64,000 nt of DNA, taken from positions 1,443 to 65,442 of the forward strand of contig CAZYOB010000001.1 of the NCBI GenBank assembly GCA_964648275.1, given 5' to 3'. Each line of letters starts with the position of its first letter. Position 1 is the stretch's first letter. Position numbers and translations under genes: made by a program. Positions 1 through 57,735 of this stretch are shown here, one piece after another. The stretch is from an uncultured Pseudomonadales bacterium. Lineage in GTDB: Bacteria; Patescibacteriota; Microgenomatia; UBA1400; MFAQ01. The notes beneath the pieces were generated by a model that was given only the letters and a program-made list of their open reading frames with translations, was not told the DNA's origin and did no database searches.

Positions 1-812
1 CCTCCCTTGCCTTTCTTTTTCTGCTTCTGCTGTTTAAAGGGTCCAGCCCCGCTTATGCCGATTTCCTTTACGTCGTTACCGGTTCTATAAATGACAATGG
101 AGGTATCCACAATCCAACAGACTTTACCGTCCATGTAAAAAGTGGAGATGCAGATGTGGCCGGTAGTCCCGCTCCAGGAGCAAGAGGTCCCGGCACTTTA
201 TATACACTACCTACCGGAACTTATAAAGTATCTATTGATTCTATTTCCTCGTATGCCACAAATTTTGGAGGTGATTGTGATTCAGGAGGGAACGTGACCT
301 TATCCCCGAGCGCAGGAAAGACTTGCATCATCACCAATAACGATAGAGCTCCGAGACTAAATGTGGTAACTTCAGTCATAAATGATGGCGGTGGCAATGC
401 AGTTGCCTCAGATTTTGTCATCCATGTCAGATCCGAAAATGTTGATGTGGCCGGTAGTCCCGCTCCAGGAGCTGGATCGCCCGGAGTTTTGTATGAAGTC
501 TCTCCAGGATCATATACAGTAAGCTCGGAGACCAAACCCTCATATACCCAGAGTTTCAGCGGCGATTGTGATGCCAGTGGCAACATGACAATTTCTTTGG
601 CTGATCAAAAGACGTGTAACGTGGTCAATACGTTTAACGGGGGTGTCCCGGGTTTTCCCGAAACCGGAAATGTTTTAAATGACTTTAGATTGTGCTTGGA
701 CTCAGGCAGCCTTCCGTGGATAATTACGGGACTGTCTCTTGTTTTTGCCATCTACATACTCGTTAAGAAACAAGGTCAAGTCGGAGAGAAACACGAGGAT
801 AATGATCTTTAG
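1..812 (+). CDS. Partial (5'-truncated) cell-surface protein with two tandem ~97-aa repeat domains and a C-terminal PETG-TM-KK anchor
   Basis: The reading frame is open from nt 3 with no stop. The translated N-terminus (SLAFLFLLLLFKGSSPAYA) looks like a signal peptide. Two repeats each carry 'DVAGSPAPGA...GGDCD..GN.T...KTC'. The C-terminus is 'GFPETG', ~20 aa, a hydrophobic helix, then 'KKQ' and an acidic tail. Confidence 0.5.
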   Translation, partial: SLAFLFLLLLFKGSSPAYADFLYVVTGSINDNGGIHNPTDFTVHVKSGDADVAGSPAPGARGPGTLYTLPTGTYKVSIDSISSYATNFGGDCDSGGNVTLSPSAGKTCIITNNDRAPRLNVVTSVINDGGGNAVASDFVIHVRSENVDVAGSPAPGAGSPGVLYEVSPGSYTVSSETKPSYTQSFSGDCDASGNMTISLADQKTCNVVNTFNGGVPGFPETGNVLNDFRLCLDSGSLPWIITGLSLVFAIYILVKKQGQVGEKHEDNDL

Positions 813-9277: not shown

Positions 9278-9284
9278 AATTACA

Positions 9285-9785
9285 CTATACACCCACTGAT
9301 TTTTTAAGATTTTTTGAGACAAGATCCAGATAAAGATGACGAAGACTTTCATCCATGGTGACGTCAGGAATTAATTTGAGTGAATATTCAATTCCATTTG
9401 AACCAAGATTGTATTTTTCTATAAGTAGGTTTAGATTGTGGTCACCTGAGGGAGTGGAGATTTTGGCTACTCCCCTGGAAGTGTCGGATGGATCATCCTT
9501 GTCTATAAGCGGGTTTTTTCCGGCAAAATTTGGATTGGACTCTATCTTCTTATCTTCATCATTAAAACGGAAACCGGTTTCGACCGATTCTCCGTCACTA
9601 TTAATACCAAGCAAAATTCTCATTTGGTCGGTCGATAGTTGCCGTAGAACGATCTCTCCAGTTTTGAATGATTCAAGTTTAGCTTCGAGTGCTGAGGCAA
9701 GTTCGAAAGCACCTTCGTTGGATGGAAAGTGTTCTACCTGGTTGGCTTTTTCTGCAGATGCGATTGGAGGTGACAGTGCTTCCAT
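9285..9785 (-). CDS. Hypothetical protein
   Basis: 166-aa ORF co-oriented with its neighbours. The plus-strand ORF 9355..9792 is treated as its antisense shadow. Confidence 0.4.
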   Translation of the reverse strand: MEALSPPIASAEKANQVEHFPSNEGAFELASALEAKLESFKTGEIVLRQLSTDQMRILLGINSDGESVETGFRFNDEDKKIESNPNFAGKNPLIDKDDPSDTSRGVAKISTPSGDHNLNLLIEKYNLGSNGIEYSLKLIPDVTMDESLRHLYLDLVSKNLKKSVGV

Positions 9786-40265: not shown

Positions 40266-43200
40266 TTAATTACTGATATCAGCTTCAACTTCTTCTTGCT
40301 GTTTGAAGCCGCCGGCTTCGGCACCTTCTTCTTCAAGATCCTCTTCTTCATATTCGTCGGCAGGAACCATTTTCTCTTCTTCAGGAGCCAGAGGAATGGT
40401 TTCTTCAGAGATGACGGCGGCAATTTCCGGTTTGACCGGAGCCTCGACAACCTCCTCTGAAACTATATTTCCAGTAGGAATGACGGCTAATGAAAGCGAG
40501 TTTAGTTCCTTGACCAAGACCTTGAAGGACTCGGGGACAGAAGACATGGGGATCTCTTCACCCTTGACGATGGCTTCGAAGGCTTTGGAGCGACCAACCA
40601 CGTCGTCGGACTTGAGGGTAAGCATTTCCTGGAGGGTGTAGGCAGCCTTGTGAGCTTCGAGAGCCCAGACTTCCATTTCTCCCAAACGCTGGCCACCCAT
40701 TTGAGCTTTACCACCTAGAGGCTGTTGAGTCACTAGGGAGTAAGGTCCAATTGAACGTGCATGGGTCTTGTCCTCAACCATGTGGTTGAGTTTGATGATG
40801 TAGCCGACACCAACGGCAGTTTCTTGTTCAAACGGAAGACCGGTGCGACCATCGTAGAGCTGAGTCTTGCCGGTGATGGGAAGGCCTGCTTCTGCGAGAA
40901 GTTTCTCGATTCTTTCTTCTTCAACGTTCTCGAAGACAGGGACGGCAATTTTCTTACCGAGTTTGGTGGCAGCGTAACCAAGCTGTGCTTCAATGAGCTG
41001 ACCAAGGTTCATACGAGCAAGAACTGAAAGAGGAGAAATAATGATGTCAACCGGGCTACCGTCAGGGAGGTAAGGCATATCAGCGACCGAAACTATCTTA
41101 GAAATGACACCTTTGTTTCCATGACGACCGGAAACTTTGTCACCGACAGTAATCTTTCTCAACTGAGCAACCCTGATTTTGATCTGTTTAATGACACCGG
41201 AATCGAGTTCATCTCCTCCCTCACGATCAAGGATTTGAACCGAAATGACGGTTCCTTGTTCACCATGAGGCATTCTGAGAGAAGTGTCTCTGACTTCACG
41301 AGCTTTCTCACCGAAGATAGCTCTTAAGAGACGTTCCTCTGCAGTCAGCTCTGTCTCACCTTTAGGAGCGATTTTACCGACTAGGATGTCGTTGGGGCCG
41401 ACGGCAGAACCAATGGCGATGACTCCATCGGGACCAAGGTTCCTGAGATCGGTTTCGGCGACGTTGGGGATATCACGGGTGAGTTCTTCTGCACCAAGCT
41501 TAGTATCCATGACGTCACAGACGTGCTCGTGGATGGAGATACTGGAGAGCAGATCTTCTTTGACACAACGATCGGAGATGACAACGGCGTCTTCATAACC
41601 CAAGCCTTCAAAAGCAGCGTAAGCAATGGTAAGGTTTTGACCAAGAGCCAATTCACCGTTTTCTGCAGCCGGACCATTGATAATCAAGTCACCTTTTTTG
41701 ATTTTGTCTCCTACGTTGACCATGGGGGTCTGGTTGTAGCAGGTATCTTGTGAGGTACCGTAGTATTTTCTGAGGTTGTAGGTTTCGATGCCTTTGTTGA
41801 CCTCAACAAATCCATAATCGAAAGGTGAGATCTCGGAGGCAGCGGTTTTGGCTTCCTCCGCACTCAGTTTGATATCGATGTGAGCGGCGTCTGAGGCGAC
41901 AACTTCACCGGAATGGCGGGCACGGACGACCCAACCCATGGATTCGGCAACGGTGTCTTCCATACCTGTACCAACTACGGGAGATGAGGGTTTTACTAAG
42001 GGCAGCGCCTGAGTAAGATGGTGAGTACCCATGAGGGCACGAGTACCTTCATCCTGTTGAATGAAAGGAATGAGGGCAGCACTGGTACCGATCACCTGAC
42101 GGGGAACAACATCGATATATTGAACTAGCGTAGAGTCGGCTTCGATGAATTTGCCCTGGTAGCGGACGGGGACCCATTTCTGAGTGATAATATCACCTTC
42201 ACGGTCGACACCTGCATGAGTGATGTAGGCATCTTCTTCGTCGTCAGCGGCAAGGTAAACAACCTCGTCGGAGATACGCATGACGGTCTCATTGCCTTTA
42301 ACCTCTTTAGTGACCTTAAGGTAGGGAGCTTCGAGAAAGCCGTAAGGATTAACACGGGTATAAAGGGCAAGGTAGGTGACCAAACCGATGTTCGGTCCTT
42401 CAGGGGAACGAACCGGACAGGTACGGGAGTATTGAGAGGAGTGAATATCACGCATGGAGAAGGAAGCGCGTTCGCGGGTGATACCACCTGGACCCATAAC
42501 GGAGATACGTCTAAGATTGTCAATTTCAGAAAGAGGATTGACCTGGTCAAGGATTGAGGAAAGTCTATTTCTGCGGAAGAATTCGGTAATCGAGGAAATG
42601 ATCGGGCGAGGATTGACGAAGGCGGCGGGGGTAGGAAGTTCATCCGGCTTGGCCAGAGACATTTTCTCTTTGATGGAGCGCTCGAGACGGAGAAGACCTA
42701 CTTTGAAAGCAGTCTGGTTGACGAGCTCACCGACACAACGAATACGACGATTGGCGAGATGATCAATATCATCGACCTTACCCTTGCCGTTTTGGAGGCT
42801 GATGAGATATTTTATGGAACCGATGACATCATCGATAGAAAGAGTGACGTGCTGTTTATCAATAGGGGTATTAGTACCGAGCTTGCGGTTAAGTTTATAG
42901 CGGCCTACCAGCCCAAGGTTGTAGCGGCGGGAATCAAAGAACATTTGGTGGAGAAGGGCTTTGGCATTATCCAAAACAGCAGGTTCACCGGGGCGGATCT
43001 TTTGGTAGAACTCGAGGAGAGCCTCTTCGGTGTTGGTGGTGGTGTCTTTTAGAAGGGTGGTGGCGACGTATTGGTGATCTTTATTGGTGTCAACGTCGGA
43101 GAAAAGCTCCTGAATTTGAGCATTTTCCGAGAAACCAAGAGCTCTGACGAGCGTGGTGGCAGAAACTTTGCGATGACGATCAATCCTAACCGAGAGATGG

Positions 43201-43718
43201 TCGTTGCGGGAGACGATAACTTCAAGCCAGGAACCGCGCATAGGACGGATCTCAGCCTGGTGAAGGGCACGGCCGGAGTGTGGGTCGACTTCACGAGTGA
43301 AGTAAACACCTGGAGAGCGGACTACCTGATTAACAACTACGCGCTCGACGCCGTTGATGATAAAGGTACCGGTATTAGTCATCATGGGGATGTCCCCGAG
43401 GAAAATTTCTTGCTGTTGAGTAGCTTTTGAGTGGAGATTGGTGAGTTTTACGGTAGCCCAAAGGGGAGCTTCGAAAGTAACACCTTTTTCGATGGCAACT
43501 TTAGGAGTAATTTTGGGCAAGCCGACACGAGAGGAAAGGAATTCGAATTCGAAAACTTTACCGGTGAAGTCCTTTATGGGATTAAGCTCTGTTAGAGATT
43601 CACTGATGCCCTCTTCGAGGAATTGTTTGTACGAGTCGATCTGTATTTTTGTAAGATCTGATTGTTCTAATTTTGGGGTGATCTTTCCCCAGTTTTCGCG
43701 ATTGATTGGTTTAATCAT
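40266..43718 (-). CDS. rpoB: DNA-directed RNA polymerase subunit beta
   Basis: About 1150 aa. I set the start at MIKPINR (ATG at 43716-43718, preceded by AAGG). It has an acidic C-terminal tail. Confidence 0.9.
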   Translation of the reverse strand: MIKPINRENWGKITPKLEQSDLTKIQIDSYKQFLEEGISESLTELNPIKDFTGKVFEFEFLSSRVGLPKITPKVAIEKGVTFEAPLWATVKLTNLHSKATQQQEIFLGDIPMMTNTGTFIINGVERVVVNQVVRSPGVYFTREVDPHSGRALHQAEIRPMRGSWLEVIVSRNDHLSVRIDRHRKVSATTLVRALGFSENAQIQELFSDVDTNKDHQYVATTLLKDTTTNTEEALLEFYQKIRPGEPAVLDNAKALLHQMFFDSRRYNLGLVGRYKLNRKLGTNTPIDKQHVTLSIDDVIGSIKYLISLQNGKGKVDDIDHLANRRIRCVGELVNQTAFKVGLLRLERSIKEKMSLAKPDELPTPAAFVNPRPIISSITEFFRRNRLSSILDQVNPLSEIDNLRRISVMGPGGITRERASFSMRDIHSSQYSRTCPVRSPEGPNIGLVTYLALYTRVNPYGFLEAPYLKVTKEVKGNETVMRISDEVVYLAADDEEDAYITHAGVDREGDIITQKWVPVRYQGKFIEADSTLVQYIDVVPRQVIGTSAALIPFIQQDEGTRALMGTHHLTQALPLVKPSSPVVGTGMEDTVAESMGWVVRARHSGEVVASDAAHIDIKLSAEEAKTAASEISPFDYGFVEVNKGIETYNLRKYYGTSQDTCYNQTPMVNVGDKIKKGDLIINGPAAENGELALGQNLTIAYAAFEGLGYEDAVVISDRCVKEDLLSSISIHEHVCDVMDTKLGAEELTRDIPNVAETDLRNLGPDGVIAIGSAVGPNDILVGKIAPKGETELTAEERLLRAIFGEKAREVRDTSLRMPHGEQGTVISVQILDREGGDELDSGVIKQIKIRVAQLRKITVGDKVSGRHGNKGVISKIVSVADMPYLPDGSPVDIIISPLSVLARMNLGQLIEAQLGYAATKLGKKIAVPVFENVEEERIEKLLAEAGLPITGKTQLYDGRTGLPFEQETAVGVGYIIKLNHMVEDKTHARSIGPYSLVTQQPLGGKAQMGGQRLGEMEVWALEAHKAAYTLQEMLTLKSDDVVGRSKAFEAIVKGEEIPMSSVPESFKVLVKELNSLSLAVIPTGNIVSEEVVEAPVKPEIAAVISEETIPLAPEEEKMVPADEYEEEDLEEEGAEAGGFKQQEEVEADISN

Positions 43719-43872
43719 CCTTATTTTTTTGTGTTTATGGGCAGAAATTATAACAATGCGCAAACGTACAAAAACCTGACCAGAAATGGCCAAGTTATAT
43801 AGCAGTGTTGATAGTATAACTTAGGATGCCTGATTATGTCAACAGGGTGGAGGCTGGGAGAATAATTGACTT

Positions 43873-44350: not shown

Positions 44351-44377
44351 CCGGCCTAACAAGGCCGGTTTTTTATT
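44351..44377. terminator. Rho-independent terminator (plus strand; may also serve convergent mltG)
   Basis: CCGGCCT-AACA-AGGCCGG followed by TTTTTTATT. Confidence 0.55.
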
Positions 44378-45362
44378 GGCAGTCTTTTTTGAGATAGACA
44401 CAAACGTTTTCATTGTGGTCTTCGACGGTTTTGGCGAAGTGGATCTTGCCGGAAAGATCGTGGATATAAAACCAATTGGGTGTGATTAGAGGAGAGGAGG
44501 CGGCTGACAAACTGTCCCTACCGGGGTTGGAAATCGGTGCGGGAGGTAGCCCGGGGTTCTCGTAGGTATTGTAGGGAGACTTAAACTGAATATCTGCTCG
44601 GGAAAGATTTTTAGGCCACCAATCACAATCAACCTTTTTACACCGGGCGGTACCTAGAGCATACTGGACCGTGGCGTCTACTTGGAGGGGCCACCCAGCC
44701 TTGAGTCGATTATTGAGCACTCCGGCGACTTCAGGCATTTCGCCGGCATTAGCAGCCTCTCTTTCAAGAAGTGAGGCAAGAATTAATATCTCAGGTTCTT
44801 TATCGGAGCCGATCTTAAGATCGGAAATCACTCTTTTATAATTATCGTTGAGACGAGAGACAACAGTTTGGGTATCAGCCTTGGGGTCGAAATCATAGGT
44901 ATCAGGGAACAGTTTTCCCTCAAGGGTAGCAGTGAGGCTTAAAAATGTATTGGTGTCAAATCTTGATTCAGGATTATTCTCTTTGAGGGATTTTTGGACA
45001 ATGAGGGCAATTTCCTGGCGACGCAGCCCTTCGGGAATGGTCACGCGGACCTGACGAGCATAGGCTCTGGTGAGTTTTTGAGCAATGGTTGGAGCGTCCA
45101 TCGAAGGTGAGAGCCTAAAAAAACCAGCTTGAATCTTACTGGCTATGCCAAGACGGACAACCGTTAGTTTAAAGGCTGCCCTTGAACGAATAAGCTTATT
45201 CCGACTAAGGTTGTTGATTATTTGATCCAAATTCTCACCCGAGACCACTTCAAAGTCCTGCTCAGGAGTGGAGTGAACTGTAACAGGTCGAATAGAGTTG
45301 AAGTACCAACCAAGAAAGCCGACGAGAAGTATGGAAAGGACAATAAATAAACGTTTGAACAC
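44373..45362 (-). CDS. mltG: Endolytic murein transglycosylase MltG (YceG family)
   Basis: N-terminal TM and a YceG domain; conserved position next to ruvX. Confidence 0.8.
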   Translation of the reverse strand: MFKRLFIVLSILLVGFLGWYFNSIRPVTVHSTPEQDFEVVSGENLDQIINNLSRNKLIRSRAAFKLTVVRLGIASKIQAGFFRLSPSMDAPTIAQKLTRAYARQVRVTIPEGLRRQEIALIVQKSLKENNPESRFDTNTFLSLTATLEGKLFPDTYDFDPKADTQTVVSRLNDNYKRVISDLKIGSDKEPEILILASLLEREAANAGEMPEVAGVLNNRLKAGWPLQVDATVQYALGTARCKKVDCDWWPKNLSRADIQFKSPYNTYENPGLPPAPISNPGRDSLSAASSPLITPNWFYIHDLSGKIHFAKTVEDHNENVCVYLKKDCQ

Positions 45363-45371: not shown

Positions 45372-45578
45372 TTAAACTTCGCTTAGAAGAGCTCTTCTGT
45401 AAGTGTTTTTTCCGGGATCGTAGATGAAGATGCGGCCGCACTTACAGGTGACCTGTTCTGAACCATTAACCTTGGATGACGGCTGGTGTTGGCCGTTGCT
45501 TAAGGCTGTCCCACAACCGACGCAGGAACCTCTTGAGAGAAGCCAAGCTTGGACTGGGGCAATGATGTTTTTGAACAT
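45372..45578 (-). CDS. Small zinc-ribbon protein (hypothetical)
   Basis: 68 aa with C.GCG...CKCG. Confidence 0.35.
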   Translation of the reverse strand: MFKNIIAPVQAWLLSRGSCVGCGTALSNGQHQPSSKVNGSEQVTCKCGRIFIYDPGKNTYRRALLSEV

Positions 45579-45617: not shown

Positions 45618-46010
45618 TTAAACTGAATCTAAATAGTCCTGAAGGATGAGGGCGGCGGCGGTCTGGTGTTCGAGAGTTTTTATCTCATGACCGCGCTTGC
45701 CACTTTCCTTCATTTTCGAGCGGGCTTCTTTGGAACTGAGATCCTCATTAAAAAGAATAATTTGACCGGAAAAAATCCGAGGTAGCTTTTCCGCCAAGTC
45801 CTGGGCTGTCTTTACCAAAGGACCATAATCGGGAGTACCAATGACTATAGTTTGAGGATTCAAACGGGCAATAAATGGTGCCAGGCGACCAATAAGAATG
45901 TTTAGATCCCTTTCAAAAATAGTGTCGAGAGGTTCGGCGAGAATTCCCTCGTGAGAAATGGCAATACCGGTGTGAGCTGTTCCCGGATCAAGGCATAGAA
46001 TAACTGGCAT
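45618..46010 (-). CDS. ruvX: Putative pre-16S rRNA nuclease / Holliday junction resolvase-like YqgF
   Basis: 'LCLDPGTAHTGIAIS' RNase H-like N-terminus and a YqgF-like C-terminal 'AAALILQDYLD'. Confidence 0.75.
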   Translation of the reverse strand: MPVILCLDPGTAHTGIAISHEGILAEPLDTIFERDLNILIGRLAPFIARLNPQTIVIGTPDYGPLVKTAQDLAEKLPRIFSGQIILFNEDLSSKEARSKMKESGKRGHEIKTLEHQTAAALILQDYLDSV

Positions 46011-46016: not shown

Positions 46017-46784
46017 TTAATTTTTGACTAATTCGGCTTCAACAATCAACCGTCTGAGGGTTGTGCCCGGAGGAACACAAGTAACGACTTTAATTGTCTT
46101 TTGTGAATAATCCTGACGCAATACCCAAAGCTCGTTGGGCTTTACTTCGAAAGTTTTCGAAACACGGTAAGTATATTCTATGCCGTCATAGGCAACGAAG
46201 ATGTCCGAGCCCACCTTAAGCTTAGGTAAAGTGGAAAAAATCGATTTGTAGTTTTTGGGGTCGAAAAATTGAGGTAGAGTTGAGTGACCGAAGATCACCG
46301 GAGATCCAATCTGGCCGGGAAGGGCGGTCTGGGGATAATGGACGAGAGCTTTGGTGAGGTCCTCGCTTTTCAAACTGACTGAGGCACTTTCGATGCCGAG
46401 AGAAGGAATGGAGAGTGAGTATGATTTGGGGGCGGCAGACGGGTCTGTGGTGACATTTTCTTGAGAGACGAAAAGGTCATTCTGAATACTCCCCGGGAAC
46501 CAATTACTGGCCTTTGTAAAGTCGGCAGATCCCGAGACCAGGGATGGACCGGAGTTTTCTTCTGCTTGGGAGACATATGAAGCAGGAGAGAGTAAACCAG
46601 AATCCGTAAATGACCCTAGGATATTTACTCCCTGGAAATCAAAGCTGACGATGGGATAGATGACAAAGGCCACAAGAGCCAAGCCGAGAGCGGAAATTAG
46701 CGTAGGTAGCGCTTTCACATATCGAGGGATGAATTTCCCTGGATGGGGATCCTGCGGTGTGGCCTTGCGGTAACCGTAAAGCAT
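46017..46784 (-). CDS. Sortase family transpeptidase
   Basis: N-terminal TM, catalytic His in 'VIFGHS', Cys in 'IKVVTCVPPGT' (the TLxTC motif) and Arg in 'RRLIV'. Confidence 0.75.
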   Translation of the reverse strand: MLYGYRKATPQDPHPGKFIPRYVKALPTLISALGLALVAFVIYPIVSFDFQGVNILGSFTDSGLLSPASYVSQAEENSGPSLVSGSADFTKASNWFPGSIQNDLFVSQENVTTDPSAAPKSYSLSIPSLGIESASVSLKSEDLTKALVHYPQTALPGQIGSPVIFGHSTLPQFFDPKNYKSIFSTLPKLKVGSDIFVAYDGIEYTYRVSKTFEVKPNELWVLRQDYSQKTIKVVTCVPPGTTLRRLIVEAELVKN

Positions 46785-46786
46785 GG

Positions 46787-49012
46787 CTATTGCGGAATGA
46801 CTTCTACTTCGATATTGTTGAGGGGCAAGAATTTGGTGGACAAGAAAGGTATGTAGGGTGATGTAATTGCCTTGGATTCTGAAAACCCACTAATGTTTTG
46901 GAGGAGTACTTTTGCGTTGGGGAGAGTCTTGCCCTTGATCATATCCGAGTACTGCTTTTGATCAATTTGCTGATAGAGAGTGGCGTTGACGGTGGCTTTG
47001 GCGATGTAAGAATCCCCTTTTTGAGTGGGATTCTCTATTTTGATATCGGTAGAAGCCTGATCAAAGGTTAATCCCGAGGGAGTTTGCGATTGAAGCTCAT
47101 TTTTAACCAATTCGAAAAGTGCCTGCTTAGAATACACAAGTAGGTCAACCGATCCGGCCAGGTCGAGACCGACGGTGCCGGCCTCTTCACCAACATCTTT
47201 GGTAAATTTCTTTTGGGTGAAGTGAAGATCGTTCAGCGGAAGGGCACCGTTGTTGGGGTCTTGTGAGCTGAGCTGTTGACTGGTTTGTTCTTTAATTTTG
47301 TCAGTGGCTACTCCGAGAACTTTTTCCTGATCTTTTTTGTCTACGGCCTTAACGGTACGGGAAGTCCCACCGGTAAAGTCTGCTTCGGCGACTGCATAAA
47401 TGATGGTCTTTGAGTAGTTATCCACTATAAAGGTCGTGCTCTTTGAAAGGTTGTGTTCTGCCCCGATCTTGGAAGCACTAACCGATACGGCTTCTTTTTT
47501 ACCAAACTCTTCTTTTCCGCTGATCAAATCGGCGCTTTTTGACGCAATGGTGACAGCTTCACTGATAACAAAATTTGATTTTCCCGTTTCTGCGGCGAGA
47601 ACAGCGCCTGATTTCAGGGAAATCGGAGCGCTGGAACGATTGAAAATGGTGACCTTGCCAGAAGCACTTTCTCCGACGGTGGTTTCTCCTGTGGTAGCGA
47701 CCTCTTCCTTGGCACTACCGCTGACAGTTTCTTTTTGGGCAATGAGAGTCGGCAGATCAGGTTGAGCCACTTGGGCGATGGCAATTTCAATTTCTCGAGT
47801 AAATTTTTCCGGATTAACAAAGACCTTTATCTTGGCCGAACCGAGGAAAAAGTAATATGCAGGAATGCCGATGAGGGCAAATAGAGCCAATGCTGCAAGA
47901 GCAAGCGGCATCTTCTTGGAAGAGGAGGGAAATTTATTCGCCAAACTATGAGTAAAACTAGGAATCAATTTTTTGAGGTTTAGTTTTGGTCGAGGTTTGG
48001 AGGGCATTGAGGAGTCGTCTCCGACGGCGAAACGGGCTTCGTCATCGACTACAGAGGGCATCTCATTGATCTGAATATCCGAATCGGTCTCTTGGACAGG
48101 AATAATCTCCTTTTCTTCCGGAATTTCATCCGGGGGTGGGGTTTCTTCAAAAGTGAATCCCAGATTTTCAAGGTCAGCGACCGGTTTGTTGTCAGGAATA
48201 TAGATATTGGCAGTATCCGACTTGATTTTTTCAGATCTTTCTTCTGTTTCAACCGGGGGTGTTTTAACTTCCAGCCCCAGATGTTGGGCGGCTTCGGTGC
48301 CGCCGGCCAGAGCAACTGCTCTGACACTTAAATCTACCGGCAATATTTCTACCTTGGGCATGTGGATAAAAGGAAGCCGTTCCTGCCAGGGATAGGAAAG
48401 AATTTGCTGCTGTTCATCTTCGAGAGCACCACCATCGGTAAGAAGGAAGCGAGCAGGAAGAGATTCAAACTCCATACGAGCGAGGCCCTCTTCGACATCC
48501 CTGGCCAAATCACCGGAAACTCCCACCTCTTCAGTGGCTTCAACTTTCCCCAATTTAACGACTGAAACGACAACTTTTGTGTTGTAGATCTCCAGGAGAA
48601 TGGCAGTTGGAGGAATGCCTTCTTTTTGTTTAAGGAAGTGGGCGATGGCTTGAGTGGTGGGGACAACTCCGATGGGAGTGAGTTTTAACTCATTGACTAT
48701 TTTGCTGATTAAATTGCGTTTGGTTGGATGAATTCCCTCATCTCCCAACCATGACTCAGGTAAACCAAAGATAATGCGATGAGGTTCAGGCTTAATGTTC
48801 TTGACTGCTTCGGTAATTGACGCATCGACACCGTTAATGAGAGATTCCTCGTCTTCCCACATCTCAAACGATCCCTGTCCGATGACCTGAGGTTCTCCGT
48901 CCAGAAGTTCCCAACAAACAGATTTAATGAGTGATTCGTGAATTTCGACAGCAAGGAAGTATTCAGCAGGGGGTTCTTTTTTATTACTTCCAAATATATT
49001 TTTTAGATTCAT
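46787..49012 (-). CDS. Hypothetical 741-aa protein: N-terminal actin-like (FtsA/PilM-like) cytoplasmic domain, single TM, large extracellular C-terminal domain
   Basis: Actin-fold-like motifs ('LLTDGGA', 'VALAGGTEAAQ'), an acidic linker, TM 'MPLALAALALFALIGIPAYYFFL', then a Ser/Thr/Lys-rich ectodomain. The sortase gene starts 2 nt downstream. Confidence 0.4.
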   Translation of the reverse strand: MNLKNIFGSNKKEPPAEYFLAVEIHESLIKSVCWELLDGEPQVIGQGSFEMWEDEESLINGVDASITEAVKNIKPEPHRIIFGLPESWLGDEGIHPTKRNLISKIVNELKLTPIGVVPTTQAIAHFLKQKEGIPPTAILLEIYNTKVVVSVVKLGKVEATEEVGVSGDLARDVEEGLARMEFESLPARFLLTDGGALEDEQQQILSYPWQERLPFIHMPKVEILPVDLSVRAVALAGGTEAAQHLGLEVKTPPVETEERSEKIKSDTANIYIPDNKPVADLENLGFTFEETPPPDEIPEEKEIIPVQETDSDIQINEMPSVVDDEARFAVGDDSSMPSKPRPKLNLKKLIPSFTHSLANKFPSSSKKMPLALAALALFALIGIPAYYFFLGSAKIKVFVNPEKFTREIEIAIAQVAQPDLPTLIAQKETVSGSAKEEVATTGETTVGESASGKVTIFNRSSAPISLKSGAVLAAETGKSNFVISEAVTIASKSADLISGKEEFGKKEAVSVSASKIGAEHNLSKSTTFIVDNYSKTIIYAVAEADFTGGTSRTVKAVDKKDQEKVLGVATDKIKEQTSQQLSSQDPNNGALPLNDLHFTQKKFTKDVGEEAGTVGLDLAGSVDLLVYSKQALFELVKNELQSQTPSGLTFDQASTDIKIENPTQKGDSYIAKATVNATLYQQIDQKQYSDMIKGKTLPNAKVLLQNISGFSESKAITSPYIPFLSTKFLPLNNIEVEVIPQ

Positions 49013-49039: not shown

Positions 49040-50878
49040 TTATTCAAACTGCAAGTAGAGACGCCGGAGCGATGCCCCCAGCGATTCTTGCTTGACTATT
49101 TTTATCTTAGCAAGTTCCCCGGTATTAGTCACGTGCGGTCCACCACAGAATTCTTTAGAAAAGAAGTTAGGAGGAGAGCCGATGGTGTAAACGCTGACGA
49201 TGTCAGGATATTTTTGACCGAAGAACGCCAATGCCCCTTCGGATAAAGCTTCTTCCCGAGGTTTTTCTTCGCGAGTGACGGAAAGTTTTTCCGAAATTTT
49301 TTGGTTTATTAAATCCTGAACTGCGGCGATTTGTTCGTCGGTAAGTTTTTCGGGGTGAGAAAAATCAAATCTCAGCCTCTCCGAGGTAATGTTGCTGCCC
49401 TTTTGCTGAACGTGGGTCCCCAGTATTTGTCTTAGGGACGTGTGAAGAAGGTGGGTAGCGGTGTGATAGGCAGTGACTGTTTCCGATTTATCCGCGAGAC
49501 CACCTTTAAACATGCCAGCTGAGGTAGAACGCGACAGATCCCTATGTTTCTCGAACTCTTCTTTGAATTGGTCGATGTTGATAGTTCTGCCCATCTGAGA
49601 AAGAATTTCAACTGTTATTTCCAGAGGAAAGCCCAGGTTTTGATAAAGGTCGAAGGCTCCCTTTCCATCAATATCGGGATTTTTTTCCAATTCACGAAGA
49701 CCTTTTTCCAGGGATTGGGAAAATTTGCCGATCTCAGTGTTGACAGTATCTTTTATGAACCGGGTATCTTCTTCCGGCTCAAAATAGACTCCTGTGTAGA
49801 TACCAATAATGACATCGATCAGATCGGAAAGTCTGTCAAGACCGGAGCGAGAACCGGTGAGATAGTAAAACTTGACTGCGGCGCGACGTAATAGTCGACG
49901 GAGTACATAACCCTGAGTCTTGTTACCAGGGATAACTCCATCTTTTATCAGGAAAGTTGCTGCAGTGAGATGGTCGGCCAACACTCTCATCGCAGGACGA
50001 TTGTTTTCTTCGGAATATTTCTTGTCGGTAATAAGTTCCAATTTCGAGATGATAGGTGAGAGAATCGAGGTTTTAAATACATCGGGGTCCATAAGTGTAG
50101 CTGCCGATAGACGGACCAGACCACCACCGAAGTCAATATTTTTCGCCGGAAGTTCTTTGAGAGAGCCGTCATCCTGTTTGAGATACTGCATGAAAACGGA
50201 GTTGCCTATCTCGATGAAGCGCCCGCAATCACAGTTGGGATGGCAGGGCTCATCCTTCCATTTAGAATTCTCATGGAACTTGAAATCCGTTCCAAAATCG
50301 TAGAATACCTCACTGTCAGGACCACCAGGTTCACCTGAGGGCATTTGTTCAGGAGTACCTGAGCGTGACCACCAATTCTTATTGGCGGGATATGGAAAAA
50401 TTCTTTCCCCTTCTTTGGCCTCTATTCCGTTTCGAGAAAAAAGTTCCTGCCAGAGAGTGATAGCTTCTGTATCTTTATCGACTCCTGATCCGCCAGCAAA
50501 GACAGAGACATAAAGTCTGGAAGGGTCAAGGCTCAAGCCTTCATTTTTATCGGTGAGAAATGTGTAAAACCATTCAAGTTGATCTTTTTTGAAATAGTCT
50601 CCCAGAGACCAGTTACCAAGCATTTCAAAAAAAGTGGTGTGGCGGTTATCACCCACTTCCTCAATATCCTGGGAACGGAAACATTTTTGACTGTCGACAA
50701 GACGGGTCCCAAGAGGGTGTTTTTCACCGAGGAGGTAGGGCATCATTGGTTGCATGCCGGCACTGGTGAAAAGTGTAGTTGCATCTCCTTCGGGAACGAG
50801 TGAGGTTGATGGCACAACGACATGACCTCTGTTAACAAAAAAGTCGAGATATTTTTTTCTAATGTCGTTGATGTCCAT
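49040..50878 (-). CDS. alaS: Alanine--tRNA ligase (short form lacking C-Ala domain)
   Basis: Class II aaRS motifs, editing-domain 'HTATHLLH', only 612 aa. Confidence 0.85.
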   Translation of the reverse strand: MDINDIRKKYLDFFVNRGHVVVPSTSLVPEGDATTLFTSAGMQPMMPYLLGEKHPLGTRLVDSQKCFRSQDIEEVGDNRHTTFFEMLGNWSLGDYFKKDQLEWFYTFLTDKNEGLSLDPSRLYVSVFAGGSGVDKDTEAITLWQELFSRNGIEAKEGERIFPYPANKNWWSRSGTPEQMPSGEPGGPDSEVFYDFGTDFKFHENSKWKDEPCHPNCDCGRFIEIGNSVFMQYLKQDDGSLKELPAKNIDFGGGLVRLSAATLMDPDVFKTSILSPIISKLELITDKKYSEENNRPAMRVLADHLTAATFLIKDGVIPGNKTQGYVLRRLLRRAAVKFYYLTGSRSGLDRLSDLIDVIIGIYTGVYFEPEEDTRFIKDTVNTEIGKFSQSLEKGLRELEKNPDIDGKGAFDLYQNLGFPLEITVEILSQMGRTINIDQFKEEFEKHRDLSRSTSAGMFKGGLADKSETVTAYHTATHLLHTSLRQILGTHVQQKGSNITSERLRFDFSHPEKLTDEQIAAVQDLINQKISEKLSVTREEKPREEALSEGALAFFGQKYPDIVSVYTIGSPPNFFSKEFCGGPHVTNTGELAKIKIVKQESLGASLRRLYLQFE

Positions 50879-50930: not shown

Positions 50931-51257
50931 TTATTTTGAGGGGTAAAAATATTCCGGTCGACGAGAAGTATCCGGGGGTGGAGGTGGTGGAGCTTCGTCC
51001 TTGGAATAAGCGTGGTGAGGAGTCTCTTCAGGAGTGCTTAAAGGAGGTGAAAAATCGGGTACATTTTCTTTGGAGTCCGTTTGACCAAGATGTCTGATAT
51101 TTTCCGGCAGTGAATCCATGATCTCCTTCATTAATTTTTTCCCTTCGTCTGTGCCAAGCAGCAGAGCCCCAAGAACGCCAACGGTAAGTCCAAACAGAAA
51201 CGAGTTGTCGTGATGGTCCGGGTTAGAGGCCTTCGGATTCATAAGGTTCAACGTCAA
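50931..51257 (-). CDS. YtxH-like small membrane protein
   Basis: 'SFLFGLTVGVLGALLLGTDEGKKLMKEI' resembles the YtxH family N-terminus. Confidence 0.4.
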   Translation of the reverse strand: MTLNLMNPKASNPDHHDNSFLFGLTVGVLGALLLGTDEGKKLMKEIMDSLPENIRHLGQTDSKENVPDFSPPLSTPEETPHHAYSKDEAPPPPPPDTSRRPEYFYPSK

Positions 51258-51528
51258 CTGGAGGTGTGGGTCTCCTCTTGCCTAATAACTGTGAGACAGA
51301 TTCAACTATCTTTCCCGATTGTTTGATCCCTTCAATGATGGCAATAAGACCGGCGGCAGGTTGGGATAATTTTTGAAGAGTTGTCTCAACCGTGTCGAGA
51401 GTATTGTTGAGTTTGGTAAGAGTATATTTGACTTCTTTGAGAATGGAAATTAGTTGGATACCGATGATGGTGGCCAGGACGGTGAGAAGGGCGGTAGAAA
51501 TAAGAGAAACTATTTGTGCCAGTGTCAT
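51223..51528 (-). CDS. DUF948-like small membrane protein
   Basis: N-terminal TM plus a helical region, about 100 aa. Confidence 0.35.
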   Translation of the reverse strand: MTLAQIVSLISTALLTVLATIIGIQLISILKEVKYTLTKLNNTLDTVETTLQKLSQPAAGLIAIIEGIKQSGKIVESVSQLLGKRRPTPPVDVEPYESEGL

Positions 51529-51548: not shown

Positions 51549-52175
51549 TTACTGACTAACGACGGTTATGGGGATGCGAACGATGGAAGTCCTGCCAAAA
51601 CGATTGGTAGCTTGAATGGAAAGTGTGGTCTCCCCGACAGGCAGAGTATATCGAACCAAGAAGTGTCCTGAAGTGTCTGGTTTTGCCCGAGTGTCATCAT
51701 CAATTCTTACTACCGAATCAACTGTAGTAAGACCTTCTATTTCCAGTGGAGAGATGAGGACGCTATTGGGTGATGGTCTTTGGATTTGTAGCATTGGCGG
51801 GGTAAGTATCGCCCGAAACTGAAAACCTAAATAGATTAAAAACACCAATAGAGCGATGCCAAAGAGGGTGATCTGTGAGTTAAGAAAAGAAAAAGATAAT
51901 GGCCGATGGCGTTTGTTCTGCTTGATCTTTCCCGACTGTGGTTGTCGATAGTCTCTTCTAAAAACAGCTACCAGTTCGTCTGGGTTTTTATCAAGTCTGA
52001 TGGCTAGATTCCTTATAAAGCCCTTGGCAAAAGTCTCCGATGGGAGTTTATCAAAGGCATCCTCCTCGAGGGCGGAAATATATTTGATGTCTATTTTGGT
52101 GAGGGAAGAAAGCTGTTCGAGGGAAAAGCTTTTAGCTTCACGAGCGGTTTTGAGGATCTGCCCGACTGTCTTCAT
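51549..52175 (-). CDS. RodZ-like protein (N-terminal XRE-type HTH, TM, C-terminal domain)
   Basis: HTH 'ILKTAREAKSFSLEQLSSLTKIDIKYISALEED', a central TM, and a C-terminal beta-rich region. Confidence 0.55.
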   Translation of the reverse strand: MKTVGQILKTAREAKSFSLEQLSSLTKIDIKYISALEEDAFDKLPSETFAKGFIRNLAIRLDKNPDELVAVFRRDYRQPQSGKIKQNKRHRPLSFSFLNSQITLFGIALLVFLIYLGFQFRAILTPPMLQIQRPSPNSVLISPLEIEGLTTVDSVVRIDDDTRAKPDTSGHFLVRYTLPVGETTLSIQATNRFGRTSIVRIPITVVSQ

Positions 52176-56373: not shown

Positions 56374-57735
56374 ATGGAAAAAGAGAGGGCGGTCAGAATT
56401 TTTAATTTGTCAGAAGATGTCTGGCCTTTTATTGAATCAATGGGAGACGAGAGGGCAAAAAGACTGGAAATAGAAGAGAATGCCGACTTGTCCGACCGTG
56501 ATCTGTATTCAATGGCCGAGGAATTTGAATTTACCTTTATCTCACCCAGAGAGATCAGCGCCGAATTCATCGATTATTTCAAGAAATTGTGCATGGTCAG
56601 AGAGCTGGAGATCTTGGTACCGAAGACACATAGCGGTCAACTGTGCGAGGACGCTCTAAATGATAAACGGGTGATGAAAAGATTGGTTGAGCTAGGAAAA
56701 ACCCACAAAAGATTGAGCTTGTCCTCATATTCAACAACGGCAAGTTTTTTGAAATTAGTGGAGAAATTAATAGAGAAGGGAGTGGAAGTAGTCACCCCCG
56801 CAGCACCGGAAGAAGAAAACGCCTGGACAGTCAATTTCTATGGAAGTAAGTCAGGAATCAGACAGCTGACGCAAATAAACGGGGCGATACGGTCTGACCT
56901 CAAAATGCCCAATGGAGTGATCAGTTCAGGGGTCACCGACACAGCAAGGATTGCTGCGAATAAGTATGTTAAAGAAGGCGGAGTGGTAATCAAGGCAAAC
57001 AAAGGTCATTCAGGGATGGGAGTATTGATCTTCCGCAAAGGAGATCTGCCAAAAAAGTACGAGGTATGTGAAAAAAAGATCTTCGATATATTAAAGATGG
57101 ATGCATATTGGGAAAAGTTCCCTGTGGTGGTAGAGTCGCTGGTTGCACCAAATCCCAGAATTGGTGGAGGATTCCCAAACGCAGAATTTTTAATCAAAAA
57201 AAACGGAGAGGTGAAGTTTTTGTATAGCTGTGGAATGAGAGTAGACAGACAGGGTGTTTTTGGAGGAGTTGAAATCAGTGAAGATGTTTTGCCGAAGAGA
57301 GTGGCATCTAGAATAACCGACATTGGTTATTTAATCGGTGAGCAGTATGCCAAGGATGGTTACCGGGGTTTTTATGACGTCGATTTTATTGCCGAGCGGG
57401 GCGGAGAGGTATATGTCAGTGAGTCGAATGTGAGAGTAACCGGAGGAACCCATGTATATCAGGCCGCGATTGAGTTAGCCGGGCGGAATTTTACCAAAAA
57501 ATCCTGTGTACTTTCCGACAATATGTATAAGATCCCGAGAAAGAAAAAATATGCTTTCGGAGAATTGAAAAAATTGATGTCGCCGATCCTATATTCCAGA
57601 AAAACCAAGGAGGGAGTGGTGATCGCGTCGGAAAGTCTGCTTTCCAAGGGAAAATTGGCTTACATCATTATTGGAAAAAACAAACGAAGGGCAGAAATGA
57701 TCGAGGAAGAGATGAAAAAGATATTACTCAAGTGA
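56374..57735 (+). CDS. ATP-grasp domain protein of unknown specificity
   Basis: 'VVIKANKGHSGMGV' (ATP-binding Lys plus Gly loop) and 'VSESNVRVTGGTH' (metal-binding E.N). The ~160-aa N-terminal region is unassigned. Start has an AAAGGA RBS. Confidence 0.55.
   Translation: MEKERAVRIFNLSEDVWPFIESMGDERAKRLEIEENADLSDRDLYSMAEEFEFTFISPREISAEFIDYFKKLCMVRELEILVPKTHSGQLCEDALNDKRVMKRLVELGKTHKRLSLSSYSTTASFLKLVEKLIEKGVEVVTPAAPEEENAWTVNFYGSKSGIRQLTQINGAIRSDLKMPNGVISSGVTDTARIAANKYVKEGGVVIKANKGHSGMGVLIFRKGDLPKKYEVCEKKIFDILKMDAYWEKFPVVVESLVAPNPRIGGGFPNAEFLIKKNGEVKFLYSCGMRVDRQGVFGGVEISEDVLPKRVASRITDIGYLIGEQYAKDGYRGFYDVDFIAERGGEVYVSESNVRVTGGTHVYQAAIELAGRNFTKKSCVLSDNMYKIPRKKKYAFGELKKLMSPILYSRKTKEGVVIASESLLSKGKLAYIIIGKNKRRAEMIEEEMKKILLK

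What the first reader, a model, noticed from the sequence alone, without database searches (positions are those of the whole stretch)
46017..49012. Sortase plus a 741-aa actin-like/TM/ectodomain protein inserted into the conserved alaS-ruvX-mltG neighbourhood
alaS, ruvX (yqgF) and mltG (yceG) are classically adjacent. Here a tightly coupled pair (2-nt spacing) sits between alaS and ruvX. The first gene encodes a 741-aa protein with an N-terminal cytoplasmic actin-fold-like domain (degenerate phosphate-1 motif; FtsA/PilM-like), one TM helix, and a ~350-aa Ser/Thr/Lys-rich extracellular domain. The second is a membrane-anchored sortase with His/Cys/Arg intact. A cytoplasmic actin-like ATPase domain fused through a TM to a surface domain resembles PilM-PilN-type assembly-platform logic. 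Pairing it with a sortase suggests an uncharacterised surface-assembly or anchoring module.
Basis: partly seen in the sequence, partly recalled or inferred. Interest (0 to 1): 0.65.

Follow-up and report, generated by a model that had tools for sequence, protein, structure and literature searches.

The report
Actin-like/baseplate-like membrane protein with dedicated sortase
A never-separated gene pair in the core genome of Microgenomates (ultra-small CPR bacteria) encodes an uncharacterised membrane protein with an FtsA/PilM-like actin-fold domain inside the cell and a phage-baseplate-like domain outside, followed by the cell's sortase; it probably forms a surface-protein anchoring platform.

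Summary
On the minus strand, a 741-aa ORF (46787-49012) and a 255-aa sortase (46017-46784) lie 2 nt apart between alaS and ruvX/mltG.

- **Rest of the protein.** A disordered acidic linker and one TM helix follow.
- **Sortase.** His167/Cys236/Arg245 are intact. It fits no defined class.
- **Linkage.** It is not chance. In 47 non-redundant loci, down to 29% identity, the gap between the pair is at most about 21 nt and never interrupted, while neighbouring junctions are often broken.
- **Family size.** At least 1,745 clusters at 50% identity, all with the same architecture, named only "hypothetical" or "baseplate J/gp47".
- **Possible substrate.** A SpaA-like secreted protein with a C-terminal FPETG sorting signal lies at 3-812.

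Best reading (inferred): a housekeeping scaffold-plus-sortase complex. It is not a type IV pilus platform and not a prophage remnant. The function is untested.

The parts
46787..49012 (-). Gene for the 741-aa bitopic membrane protein ('X741'): cytoplasmic actin-fold domain, disordered linker, TM helix, baseplate-J-like ectodomain
   Evidence: ORF. AF2 model mean pLDDT 82. Family of >=1,745 representatives at 50% identity, all ~680-820 aa.
48263..48976 (-). Residues 13-250: minimal ASKHA (actin-fold) domain, two beta-beta-beta-alpha-beta-alpha-beta-alpha halves with no 1B/1C/2B inserts and degenerate nucleotide loops
47918..48262 (-). Residues 251-365: acidic, Pro-rich disordered cytoplasmic linker of variable length and sequence
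   Evidence: pLDDT <50. Composition P 13%, E 12%, S 10%, D 9%. Conservation 0.30.
48143..48172 (-). Residues ~281-290: conserved short linear motif 'LGF..E' inside the disordered linker
   Evidence: G285 and F286 are invariant and E289 nearly invariant in A1. 'GF' is kept in the 29-34% identity homologues. Local conservation is 0.55 against 0.30 for the rest of the linker.
47843..47911 (-). Residues 368-390: single transmembrane helix (N-in, C-out)
   Evidence: Hydropathy >2. AF2 helix 368-390. Lys-rich segment on the N-terminal side.
46790..47839 (-). Residues 392-741: extracellular baseplate-J/gp47-like (phage baseplate wedge) module
46017..46784 (-). Gene for the membrane-anchored sortase, tightly coupled to X741 (2-nt spacer)
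   Evidence: Pfam Sortase 77.3 bits. It is 100% identical to a Candidatus Collierbacteria protein.
46713..46784 (-). Sortase residues 1-24: conserved cytoplasmic N-terminal peptide MLYxYxKAT..P.PG..IP.Y
   Evidence: Y3, Y5, K7, A8 and T9 are invariant in A3. Y-x-Y-x-K is kept in distant lineages. Conservation is 0.78, against 0.76 for the catalytic domain. AF2 predicts a small beta-hairpin at pLDDT ~70.
46638..46712 (-). Sortase residues ~25-49: transmembrane anchor
   Evidence: Hydropathy. AF2 helix 21-49.
46491..46523 (-). Sortase residues 88-98: conserved extracellular short motif D[FY]TKASxWFPG inside a disordered stalk
   Evidence: D88, T90, A92, S93, W95 and F96 are invariant. Conservation is 0.70 against 0.32-0.51 for the flanking stalk. 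pLDDT ~40, so it is not predicted to dock on its own catalytic domain.
46020..46424 (-). Sortase residues 121-255: catalytic domain with His167, Cys236 (VTC) and Arg245
   Evidence: Pfam match covers 124-253. Invariant H167/C236/R245. Best solved relatives are class C 8t28 (4e-9) and SrtD 4d70. All NCBIfam class models score far below their cut-offs.
3..812 (+). Candidate sortase substrate, 5'-truncated by the window edge (full length 287 aa in L052:3947-4810): signal peptide, two SpaA-like prealbumin-fold repeats, C-terminal GFPETG, 19 aa, TM, KKQ tail
   Evidence: Pfam SpaA_2 26.1 bits against a cut-off of 25. Translation and sorting-signal scan. Full-length ORF with signal peptide.
49040..50878 (-). 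alaS (short, 612-aa form), upstream neighbour; the junction to X741 is never interrupted
   Evidence: alaS-to-X741 gap: median 11 nt, maximum 60 nt in 46 loci.
45618..46010 (-). ruvX (yqgF), downstream neighbour
   Evidence: The srt-to-ruvX junction is interrupted by >300 nt in 10 of 43 loci.
44373..45362 (-). mltG (yceG), endolytic peptidoglycan transglycosylase
   Evidence: Pfam YceG 242 bits; TIGR00247 191 bits.

Best explanation
The pair is a housekeeping two-gene envelope module of Microgenomates. It consists of a bitopic scaffold protein and the cell's single, unclassified sortase, made together and acting as one membrane complex.

**Shown**
- X741 has a cytoplasmic minimal actin-fold domain of the FtsA/PilM structural type. 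Its nucleotide-binding loops are not conserved, so it is more likely a docking domain than an ATPase.
- A long disordered linker carrying a conserved LGF motif, one TM helix, and a complete baseplate-J-like wedge module outside the cell follow.
- The sortase is catalytically intact.
- The sortase carries two conserved short motifs in otherwise variable regions. One is a cytoplasmic N-terminal MLYxYxK peptide. The other is an extracellular D[FY]TKASxWFP stalk motif.
- The two genes are never separated across the family.

**Inferred**
- The actin-like domain docks a short cytoplasmic peptide, as PilM docks the PilN N-terminus and FtsA docks FtsN. The best candidate is the sortase N-peptide.
- The baseplate-like ectodomain, probably oligomeric like phage wedges, holds the sortase stalk or catalytic domain, or its substrates, next to the wall.
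- The complex then cleaves secreted proteins carrying xPxTG-type signals, such as the FPETG SpaA-like protein at 3-812, and links them to peptidoglycan. This may occur at sites of wall synthesis, given the flanking ftsK, rodZ-like and mltG genes.
For: - **Degenerate nucleotide motifs:** P1 is 'AVEIHESLIK' and P2 is 'LLEIYNTK' here. In distant members they become 'ALEIDxxxVKS' and 'LVGLSEKK', with the acidic residue lost.
- **Linkage:** the X741-to-srt gap has a median of 1 nt and a maximum of ~21 nt in 47 non-redundant loci, down to 29% X741 identity and 60% rpoB identity. Meanwhile srt-to-ruvX, ruvX-to-mltG and sm1-to-alaS are interrupted in 23-43% of loci. The same synteny holds in Pacebacteria and other lineages.
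- **Sortase N-peptide:** it is as conserved as the catalytic core, 0.78 against 0.76.
- **Intact triad:**
- **Candidate substrate:** signal peptide, SpaA-like repeats and an FPETG-TM-KK signal in the same window.
- **Housekeeping status:** the sortase is near-ubiquitous in Microgenomates (PMC6744442).
- **Precedent:** SafA-SrtA is a genetically linked membrane partner that binds a housekeeping sortase (PMC9282373).
Against: - No interaction was tested.
- The domain lacks the 1C subdomain that forms the peptide groove in PilM and FtsA, so the docking mode cannot be the same.
- One lineage (L050) has a shorter sortase without the YxYxK peptide.
- The stalk motif is not confidently placed by AF2.
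- The FPETG protein is 45 kb away and its orthologues could not be surveyed. Its spacer (19 aa) and tail (15 aa) are longer than in classical sorting signals.
- The conserved neighbours ftsK, rodZ-like and mltG fit a division or elongation role equally well.
Confidence: 0.4

Rival explanations
1. X741 is a divisome or elongasome component. On this reading it is an FtsA-like membrane tether in which the amphipathic helix of FtsA is replaced by a true TM helix plus a wall-facing ectodomain. It would couple cytoskeletal filaments (FtsZ, FtsA, MreB or the RodZ-like protein) to septal or lateral wall remodelling. The sortase would be co-located so that surface proteins are anchored at new wall. This overlaps with the best explanation but places the primary function in morphogenesis.
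For: - The architecture of actin-fold domain, flexible linker and membrane anchor mirrors FtsA.
- The conserved cluster contains ftsK, an HTH_25 RodZ-like bitopic protein and mltG.
- The module sits in the core genome.
Against: - There is no 2B subdomain, the site where FtsA binds the FtsZ tail, and no 1C subdomain.
- The alaS-ruvX-mltG adjacency is ancestral in Firmicutes too (established knowledge: B. subtilis alaS-yrzL-yrrK-yrzB-yrrL), so the neighbours do not by themselves imply function.
- No ftsZ, ftsA, ftsW or pbp genes are adjacent.
- This reading gives no role to a baseplate-like ectodomain.
Confidence: 0.25
2. X741 would be a PilM-PilN/GspL-type assembly-platform protein of a type IV filament or secretion machine, with the actin-like domain engaging a cytoplasmic ATPase.
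For: - The topology (cytoplasmic ASKHA-like domain, TM, outside domain) equals that of GspL or a PilM-PilN fusion.
- The nucleotide site is degenerate, as in GspL.
Against: - No pilin, PilB/PilT/PilC or GspE/F genes occur in any of ~50 loci.
- The ectodomain is baseplate-J-like, not a PilN/PilO/GspL ferredoxin-like domain.
- There is no 1C subdomain.
- A Microgenomates genome has a canonical PilM inside its T4P locus (PMC7143001).
Confidence: 0.07
3. X741 is a leftover of a prophage or tailocin: a baseplate J gene fused by accident to a host gene. The adjacency to the sortase would then have no functional meaning.
For: - There is sequence- and fold-level homology of the ectodomain to phage Baseplate_J/gp47 wedge proteins.
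- NCBI names some members 'baseplate J/gp47 family protein'.
Against: - No other phage genes are nearby.
- The position in the core genome is fixed across the whole class, with the junctions on both sides never interrupted.
- GC content is uniform.
- The family has >=1,745 representatives with a constant architecture.
- No relative was found in 2.9 million viral contigs, although the search patterns came from the N-domain.
- The protein carries many invariant residues.
Confidence: 0.03

Closest known systems
FtsA and PilM (actin-fold, FtsA/PilM clade of the ASKHA superfamily)
   Same: - All are cytoplasmic domains tethered to the membrane through a flexible linker.
- FtsA and PilM work by docking short peptides of bitopic partners (FtsN, PilN).
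   Different: - Only ~15% identity, and no sequence model recognises the domain.
- It lacks the 1C and 2B subdomains.
- The phosphate-1 and phosphate-2 glycine loops are replaced and not conserved across the family.
- It is anchored by a real TM helix and continues into a 350-aa ectodomain.
GspL, or PilM-PilN taken as one unit (type II secretion / type IV pilus assembly platform)
   Same: The topology is the same: a nucleotide-free actin-like cytoplasmic domain, a single TM helix, then an extracytoplasmic domain.
   Different: - The ectodomain fold is unrelated (baseplate wedge rather than ferredoxin-like).
- There is no secretion or pilus gene context.
Baseplate J / gp47 / gp6 / TssF-type wedge proteins of contractile tails, tailocins and related injection systems (Pfam PF04865, phrog_6)
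   Same: - The ectodomain matches whole wedge subunits in fold.
- In several family members it also matches in sequence, above the Pfam cut-off.
   Different: - It is a cellular, membrane-anchored, extracellular domain fused to a cytoplasmic actin-like domain.
- No tail, sheath, hub or gp7/gpI-like partner genes are present.
- It sits in a core-genome locus.
[quoted passage not shown]
   Same: - A membrane protein is encoded next to the housekeeping sortase.
- That protein binds the sortase through a short conserved motif and controls its membrane homeostasis.
   Different: - SafA is a small protein with an FPW motif.
- X741 is 741 aa with two large folded domains.
- There is no homology, and an interaction has not been shown here.
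Class C, D and E sortases
   Same: - Sortase fold with a His/Cys/Arg triad and an N-terminal membrane anchor.
- The nearest solved relatives are class C (8t28) and SrtD (4d70).
   Different: - Scores are 24-48 bits against class cut-offs of 140-166.
- There is no C-terminal TM.
- No confidently docked lid is predicted.
- It has a conserved cytoplasmic N-peptide and a stalk motif not described for the known classes (the last point is from my own knowledge).

Membership tests
ASKHA superfamily (actin/Hsp70/sugar-kinase fold) | Two RNase-H-like beta-beta-beta-alpha-beta-alpha-beta-alpha subdomains forming the actin fold | tested here: met
   [not shown]
ASKHA superfamily (actin/Hsp70/sugar-kinase fold) | Conserved nucleotide-binding motifs (phosphate-1 DxGxxxxK, phosphate-2 DxGGGT, adenosine GG) | tested here: not met
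   P1 is AVEIHESLIK and P2 is LLEIYNTK, so the glycines are absent. In 29-34% identity homologues the P2 acidic residue is lost (LVGLSEKK) and the adenosine-like LTDGG becomes LYDGE or LYNSN. Judged by sequence position and secondary structure, not by a residue-level structural alignment.
FtsA / PilM families | Recognition by the family sequence models (Pfam/NCBIfam FtsA, SHS2_FTSA, PilM_2) | tested here: not met
   No Pfam or NCBIfam hit at E<=0.1 in the N-domain. The family profile against all PDB sequences gave no ASKHA hit at E<=10.
FtsA / PilM families | Subdomain 1C (the site that docks the PilN or FtsN peptide) and, for FtsA, subdomain 2B (the FtsZ-tail site) | tested here: not met
   [not shown]
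FtsA / PilM families | Genomic context in a division (ftsQAZ) or type IV pilus (pilMNO) cluster | tested here: not met
   The context is ftsK-HTH_25-2 small ORFs-alaS-X741-srt-ruvX-mltG-rpoB in ~50 loci.
GspL / PilM-PilN assembly platform | Cytoplasmic actin-like domain, single TM helix, extracytoplasmic domain | tested here: met
GspL / PilM-PilN assembly platform | Ferredoxin-like or coiled-coil periplasmic domain, and co-occurrence with GspE/PilB ATPase and pilin genes | tested here: not met
   The ectodomain is baseplate-J-like. No such genes occur in any locus.
Baseplate_J / gp47 (PF04865) | Match to the family HMM above the curated cut-off | tested here: inconclusive
   The window protein has no hit. 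20 of 47 homologues hit weakly (best 1.8e-5). P0452 (27.8 bits) and P0418 (23.1 bits) exceed the 21.1 cut-off, while others score 16-18 bits. phrog_6 gives 7e-8 for the L048 homologue. The criterion is met for the family as a whole but not for this sequence alone.
Baseplate_J / gp47 (PF04865) | Fold of solved baseplate wedge subunits | tested here: met
   [not shown]
Baseplate_J / gp47 (PF04865) | Part of a tail/baseplate gene module (hub, gpW/gp25, gpI/gp7, sheath, tube) | tested here: not met
   No phage-like genes occur in the window around it or in any related locus. No viral-contig relatives were found.
Sortase (PF04203) | HMM match above the cut-off, and catalytic His, Cys (TLxTC-like) and Arg | tested here: met
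   77.3 bits against 26.6. TIGR01076 scores 47.6 against 39.35. H167, C236 and R245 are invariant.
Sortase classes A-F | Score above the NCBIfam class-specific cut-off | tested here: not met
   Class C 48.4 against 160; E 42.4 against 160; D 38.3 against 165; SrtD 41 against 140; F 24.6 against 166.
Sortase system | Substrate with an N-terminal signal peptide and a C-terminal motif + hydrophobic segment + basic tail | tested here: inconclusive
   One candidate lies in the window (3-812; GFPETG, 19 aa, TM, KKQ; SpaA_2 domain). Cleavage has not been shown and motif conservation in orthologues was not assessed.
SafA-type sortase partner | Small TM protein with an FPW motif that contacts the sortase TM region | tested here: not met
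   X741 is 741 aa with no homology to SafA. The comparison is an analogy only.

The most novel reading that the evidence does not exclude
Microgenomates may build a cellular, membrane-anchored, baseplate-like platform on their surface. Rings or arrays of the gpJ-like ectodomain would form it, with the TM helix standing in for the wedge's N-terminal helix. A co-assembled sortase would covalently mount fibres or adhesins on this platform. The cytoplasmic actin-like pseudo-ATPase would position or regulate it. This would be a domesticated phage attachment device used for envelope organisation or host contact by an episymbiont, and a system type with no described counterpart.
Probability: 0.15. 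Interest if true: 0.85.

Novelty: new variant of a known kind. Interest (0 to 1): 0.6.

Why it matters
CPR/Patescibacteria make up a large share of bacterial diversity, and their envelopes and host-contact machinery are largely unknown.

This module is core-genome and class-wide, with at least 1,745 clusters at 50% identity. The two genes are never separated, yet the family is annotated only as "hypothetical" or "baseplate J/gp47".

It combines three things not previously seen together:
- an FtsA/PilM-type actin fold stripped to its core;
- a phage baseplate wedge displayed on the cell surface;
- an unclassified sortase with conserved docking-like motifs.

If the proposed complex is real, it would have three consequences:
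- It would define how Microgenomates anchor surface proteins.
- It would give a second example, after SafA, of a dedicated sortase partner.
- It would be a clear case of a phage structural protein domesticated for a cellular envelope function.

The hypothesis is directly testable by co-folding and by heterologous expression.

Tried and rejected
1. I built a paired alignment of the X741 N-domain, a GS linker and the sortase N-peptide (A2). The interaction is therefore untested.
2. **AFDB search unavailable.** The afdb50 fold search for full-length structural relatives was not available on the machine.
3. **Sortase 'lid' idea not supported.** I tested whether the conserved D[FY]TKASxWFP motif acts like a class C lid. 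AF2 gives it pLDDT ~40, with no confident docking on the catalytic domain.
4. **X741 as a sortase substrate rejected.** Its C-terminus is a folded beta-strand with no motif + TM + basic tail, and its TM lies on the wrong side of the ectodomain.
5. **Early sorting-signal scans were too strict.** The first two scans of the window found nothing. A relaxed scan and a Pfam SpaA_2 hit then found the FPETG protein. A scan of the ~50 syntenic loci found no further substrates.
6. **Relatives of the FPETG protein.** A metagenome scan found only identical copies, plus divergent proteins that share the repeat but have other C-termini. Two of those carry LPPTG or LPKTG signals, in L057 and L067. Conservation of FPETG could not be assessed.
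7. **No sequence-level link to solved structures.** The family profile found no solved ASKHA or baseplate structure.
8. **Taxon names unobtainable.** Cluster look-ups for distant members returned almost no names.
9. **No literature on the family.** Searches for baseplate J with sortase or CPR, for FtsA/PilM with baseplate, and for LPXTG in CPR found nothing describing it.
10. **Prophage, chance adjacency and T4P platform disfavoured.** See the rival explanations.


Full report
**1. What is in the sequence**

All genes in 40-54 kb lie on the minus strand. In order they are:
- ftsK (52181-54316);
- an HTH_25 RodZ-like bitopic protein (51549-52175);
- two small overlapping membrane ORFs (51223-51528 and 50931-51257);
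- alaS (49040-50878);
- a 741-aa ORF (46787-49012, called X741 below);
- a 255-aa sortase (46017-46784);
- ruvX (45618-46010);
- a 68-aa Cys-rich ORF (45372-45578);
- mltG (44373-45362);
- rpoB (40266-43793).

Pfam and NCBIfam confirm alaS, ruvX, mltG and the sortase, and find nothing above threshold in X741. The stop codon of X741 and the ATG of the sortase are 2 nt apart. GC content is uniform across the region.

The sortase is 100% identical to a protein of Candidatus Collierbacteria. The window is therefore from a Microgenomates (CPR/Patescibacteria) genome.

**2. Anatomy of X741**

An AlphaFold2 model built on 47 homologues has mean pLDDT 82 and splits the protein into four parts:
- residues 13-250, pLDDT ~90;
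- residues 253-365, pLDDT <50, acidic and proline-rich;
- a helix at 368-390 that coincides with the only hydrophobic segment;
- residues 392-741, pLDDT ~90.

*N-domain.* It consists of two beta-beta-beta-alpha-beta-alpha-beta-alpha halves with no inserted subdomains, which is a bare actin (ASKHA) core.
- Next come Hsp70 (15.7), E. coli FtsA (15.3), T. thermophilus PilM (15.2), EutJ, ROK kinases, ParM and MreB (12.7).
- Foldseek agrees on the fold but does not discriminate between sub-families.
- No sequence method sees the relationship.

The loops that bind phosphate in active ASKHA proteins have lost their glycines. They read AVEIHESLIK and LLEIYNTK. Although conserved among close relatives, they change in the 29-34% identity homologues to ALEIDxxxVKS and LVGLSEKK. 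I therefore infer a non-catalytic docking domain. This rests on sequence and secondary-structure position, not on a residue-level structural alignment.

The N-domain is the most conserved part of the protein: 0.70 mean top-residue frequency, against 0.56 for the ectodomain and 0.30 for the linker. Inside the disordered linker, a short LGF motif is invariant.

*Ectodomain.* It is a baseplate-J/gp47-type wedge module.
- Foldseek matches the wedge subunits of phage phi812, cyanophage A-1(L) and diffocin at ~1e-6, over about 335-350 columns.
- The best BFVD hits are "Baseplate J-like" proteins aligned over 340-420 columns, which is the whole ectodomain against whole wedge proteins.
- At sequence level, 20 of 47 homologues hit Pfam Baseplate_J weakly. 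Two exceed the curated cut-off. PHROG 6 (baseplate wedge subunit) matches a distant homologue at 7e-8.
- NCBI already names some members "baseplate J/gp47 family protein".

**3. The sortase**

- The Pfam Sortase domain spans 124-253. H167, C236 and R245 are invariant.
- All class-specific NCBIfam models score far below their cut-offs. The nearest solved structures are a class C sortase and C. perfringens SrtD, at only 4e-9 and 2e-8. The sortase is therefore unclassified.
- Two short motifs stand out in otherwise variable regions. One is the cytoplasmic N-terminus MLYxYxKAT, with Y3, Y5 and K7 invariant. Y-x-Y-x-K is kept in the most distant lineages, and its conservation (0.78) equals that of the catalytic domain (0.76). 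The other is an extracellular stalk motif, D[FY]TKASxWFP.
- AF2 folds the N-peptide into a small hairpin at moderate confidence. It leaves the stalk, including the WFP motif, disordered. A class-C-like self-docking lid is therefore not supported, and the motif looks like a partner-binding element.

**4. Linkage and distribution**

- The genome-collection scan returned 44 loci, and look-ups of distant members added more.
- In every locus that extends downstream, X741 is followed directly by the sortase and preceded by alaS.
- Over 47 non-redundant loci, the X741-to-sortase gap has a median of 1 nt and a maximum of ~21 nt. The alaS-to-X741 gap has a median of 11 nt and a maximum of 60 nt.
- By contrast, sortase-to-ruvX is broken by more than 300 nt in 10 of 43 loci, ruvX-to-mltG in 15 of 39, and small ORF-to-alaS in 13 of 30.
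- This holds down to 29% X741 identity and 60% rpoB identity. Insertions have repeatedly hit the neighbourhood but never this junction.
- The exhaustive profile search finds 1,745 representatives (50% clusters) at E<=1e-30 and 5,125 at E<=1e-10. The best 150 are nearly all 676-822 aa and match end to end; two are shorter N-terminally truncated entries of 499 and 554 aa.
- Source names include Collier-, Woese-, Shapiro- and Pacebacteria.
- Meheust et al. reported the sortase family as near-ubiquitous in Microgenomates and patchy elsewhere in the CPR (PMC6744442).
- No relative was found in viral contigs.

**5. A candidate substrate**

The ORF at 3-812 (+) is cut by the window edge. It is complete as 287 aa in an identical metagenome contig (L052:3947-4810).
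- It has a signal peptide.
- It has two prealbumin-fold repeats that pass the Pfam SpaA_2 cut-off (26.1 against 25).
- Its C-terminus reads GFPETG, then 19 residues, then a hydrophobic segment, then KKQ.

This is the tripartite sorting signal expected of a sortase substrate, with a PETG core. It is the only such ORF in the 64 kb. I could not test how well it is conserved.

**6. How it most likely works**

*Shown:* the folds, the topology, the intact sortase triad, the degenerate nucleotide loops, the conserved short motifs, and the unbroken gene pairing in a core-genome cluster.

*Inferred:* X741 is a scaffold that holds the housekeeping sortase.
- Its actin-like domain would dock a short cytoplasmic peptide, by analogy with PilM-PilN and FtsA-FtsN. 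The best candidate is the sortase N-peptide.
- Its baseplate-like ectodomain would provide an extracellular, probably oligomeric, platform for the sortase stalk or for substrates.
- The complex would then attach xPxTG proteins to the wall.

SafA-SrtA in Actinobacteria is a precedent for a genetically linked membrane partner that binds a housekeeping sortase through a short motif (PMC9282373).

*Weaknesses:*
- No interaction test could be run.
- The 1C groove used by PilM and FtsA is absent.
- One lineage lacks the N-peptide.

I give this reading 0.4.

*Rivals:*
- The main rival is a primarily morphogenetic role as an FtsA-like tether, given ftsK, the RodZ-like gene and mltG nearby (0.25).
- A type IV pilus or secretion platform is disfavoured by context, by the ectodomain fold, and by a separate canonical PilM in a Microgenomates T4P locus (PMC7143001) (0.07).
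- A prophage remnant or chance adjacency is effectively excluded.

**7. Comparison and novelty**

X741 has the actin fold but fails the membership tests for FtsA and PilM: sequence models, the 1C/2B subdomains, the nucleotide motifs and the genomic context. It shares topology with GspL but not the outer domain or the context. Its ectodomain belongs to the Baseplate_J superfamily by fold and, for the family as a whole, by sequence, but it lies outside any tail module. The sortase is a true sortase of no defined class.

I found no paper describing this family or this pairing.

I rate it a new variant of known kinds: a sortase with a dedicated membrane partner, and a bitopic actin-like scaffold. 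There is a 0.15 chance that it is something categorically new, namely a domesticated, cell-anchored baseplate-like surface platform.

Interest is 0.6. The pair is real, deeply conserved, structurally unusual and directly testable, but its function is still inferred.

Noticed in passing
window 3-812 (+); full length in L052:3947-4810: A secreted 287-aa protein with two SpaA-like prealbumin-fold repeats (motif ...DxGG....DF...KTCIITNND) and a C-terminal GFPETG + TM + KKQ sorting signal. Relatives elsewhere carry the same repeat in very different, much larger architectures. Two of them have LPPTG or LPKTG signals (L057, L067).
   Followed up: partly
window 45372-45578 (-): A 68-aa ORF between ruvX and mltG with a CxxC...CxC pattern that resembles a zinc ribbon. 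ORFs of 65-68 aa sit at the same position in distant relatives (L003, L049, L051). It may correspond to the small gene found between ruvX and mltG in Firmicutes.
   Followed up: no
window 51549-52175 (-) and 52181-54316 (-): An HTH_25 (RodZ-like) bitopic protein directly follows ftsK. The junction is never interrupted in 32 loci (median gap 6 nt). In distant lineages the protein's C-terminus picks up weak Ig-like (Glucodextran_B/Big_6) hits.
   Followed up: partly
window 50931-51257 (-) and 51223-51528 (-): Two small membrane ORFs with weak YtxH and DUF948 similarity overlap by ~25-76 nt in all 28 loci where both were found. The first has a Pro-rich C-terminal tail.
   Followed up: no
L006, L007, L011-L014, L019, L020, L025 and others: junction between the small ORFs and alaS; also the srt-ruvX and ruvX-mltG junctions: Insertions of 1-3.8 kb recur at three junctions of an otherwise rigid housekeeping cluster, so these are variable hot spots. 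Their content was not examined.
   Followed up: no
window 8126-9352 (-): A 408-aa protein with a bactofilin domain (Pfam 39 bits) and long flanking regions. It is another cytoskeletal element in this small genome.
   Followed up: no
window 56374-57735 (+): A 453-aa ATP-grasp-like protein (PGM1_C and Pre-ATP-grasp hits). It is one of very few plus-strand genes in a long minus-strand run.
   Followed up: no
window 9796-10743 (-) and 62647-63261 (-): A PGA_cap (CapA-like capsule synthesis) protein and a Germane-domain protein. Both are envelope-related genes of unclear role in a CPR bacterium.
   Followed up: no
record titles of L005, L009-L011, L014, L028, L044-L046, L048: Many species-representative MAGs carrying this Microgenomates-specific syntenic cluster are labelled 'uncultured Pseudomonadales', 'Gammaproteobacteria' or 'Spirochaetia' in their records. 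One protein is labelled 'Marinimicrobia'. These are evidently taxonomic mislabels.
   Followed up: no
window 49040-50878 (-): alaS is the short 612-aa form. It matches NCBIfam PRK01584 end to end, while the 847-position canonical alaS model TIGR00344 is matched only over positions 1-430 in its best stretch. The junction to X741 is never interrupted.
   Followed up: no
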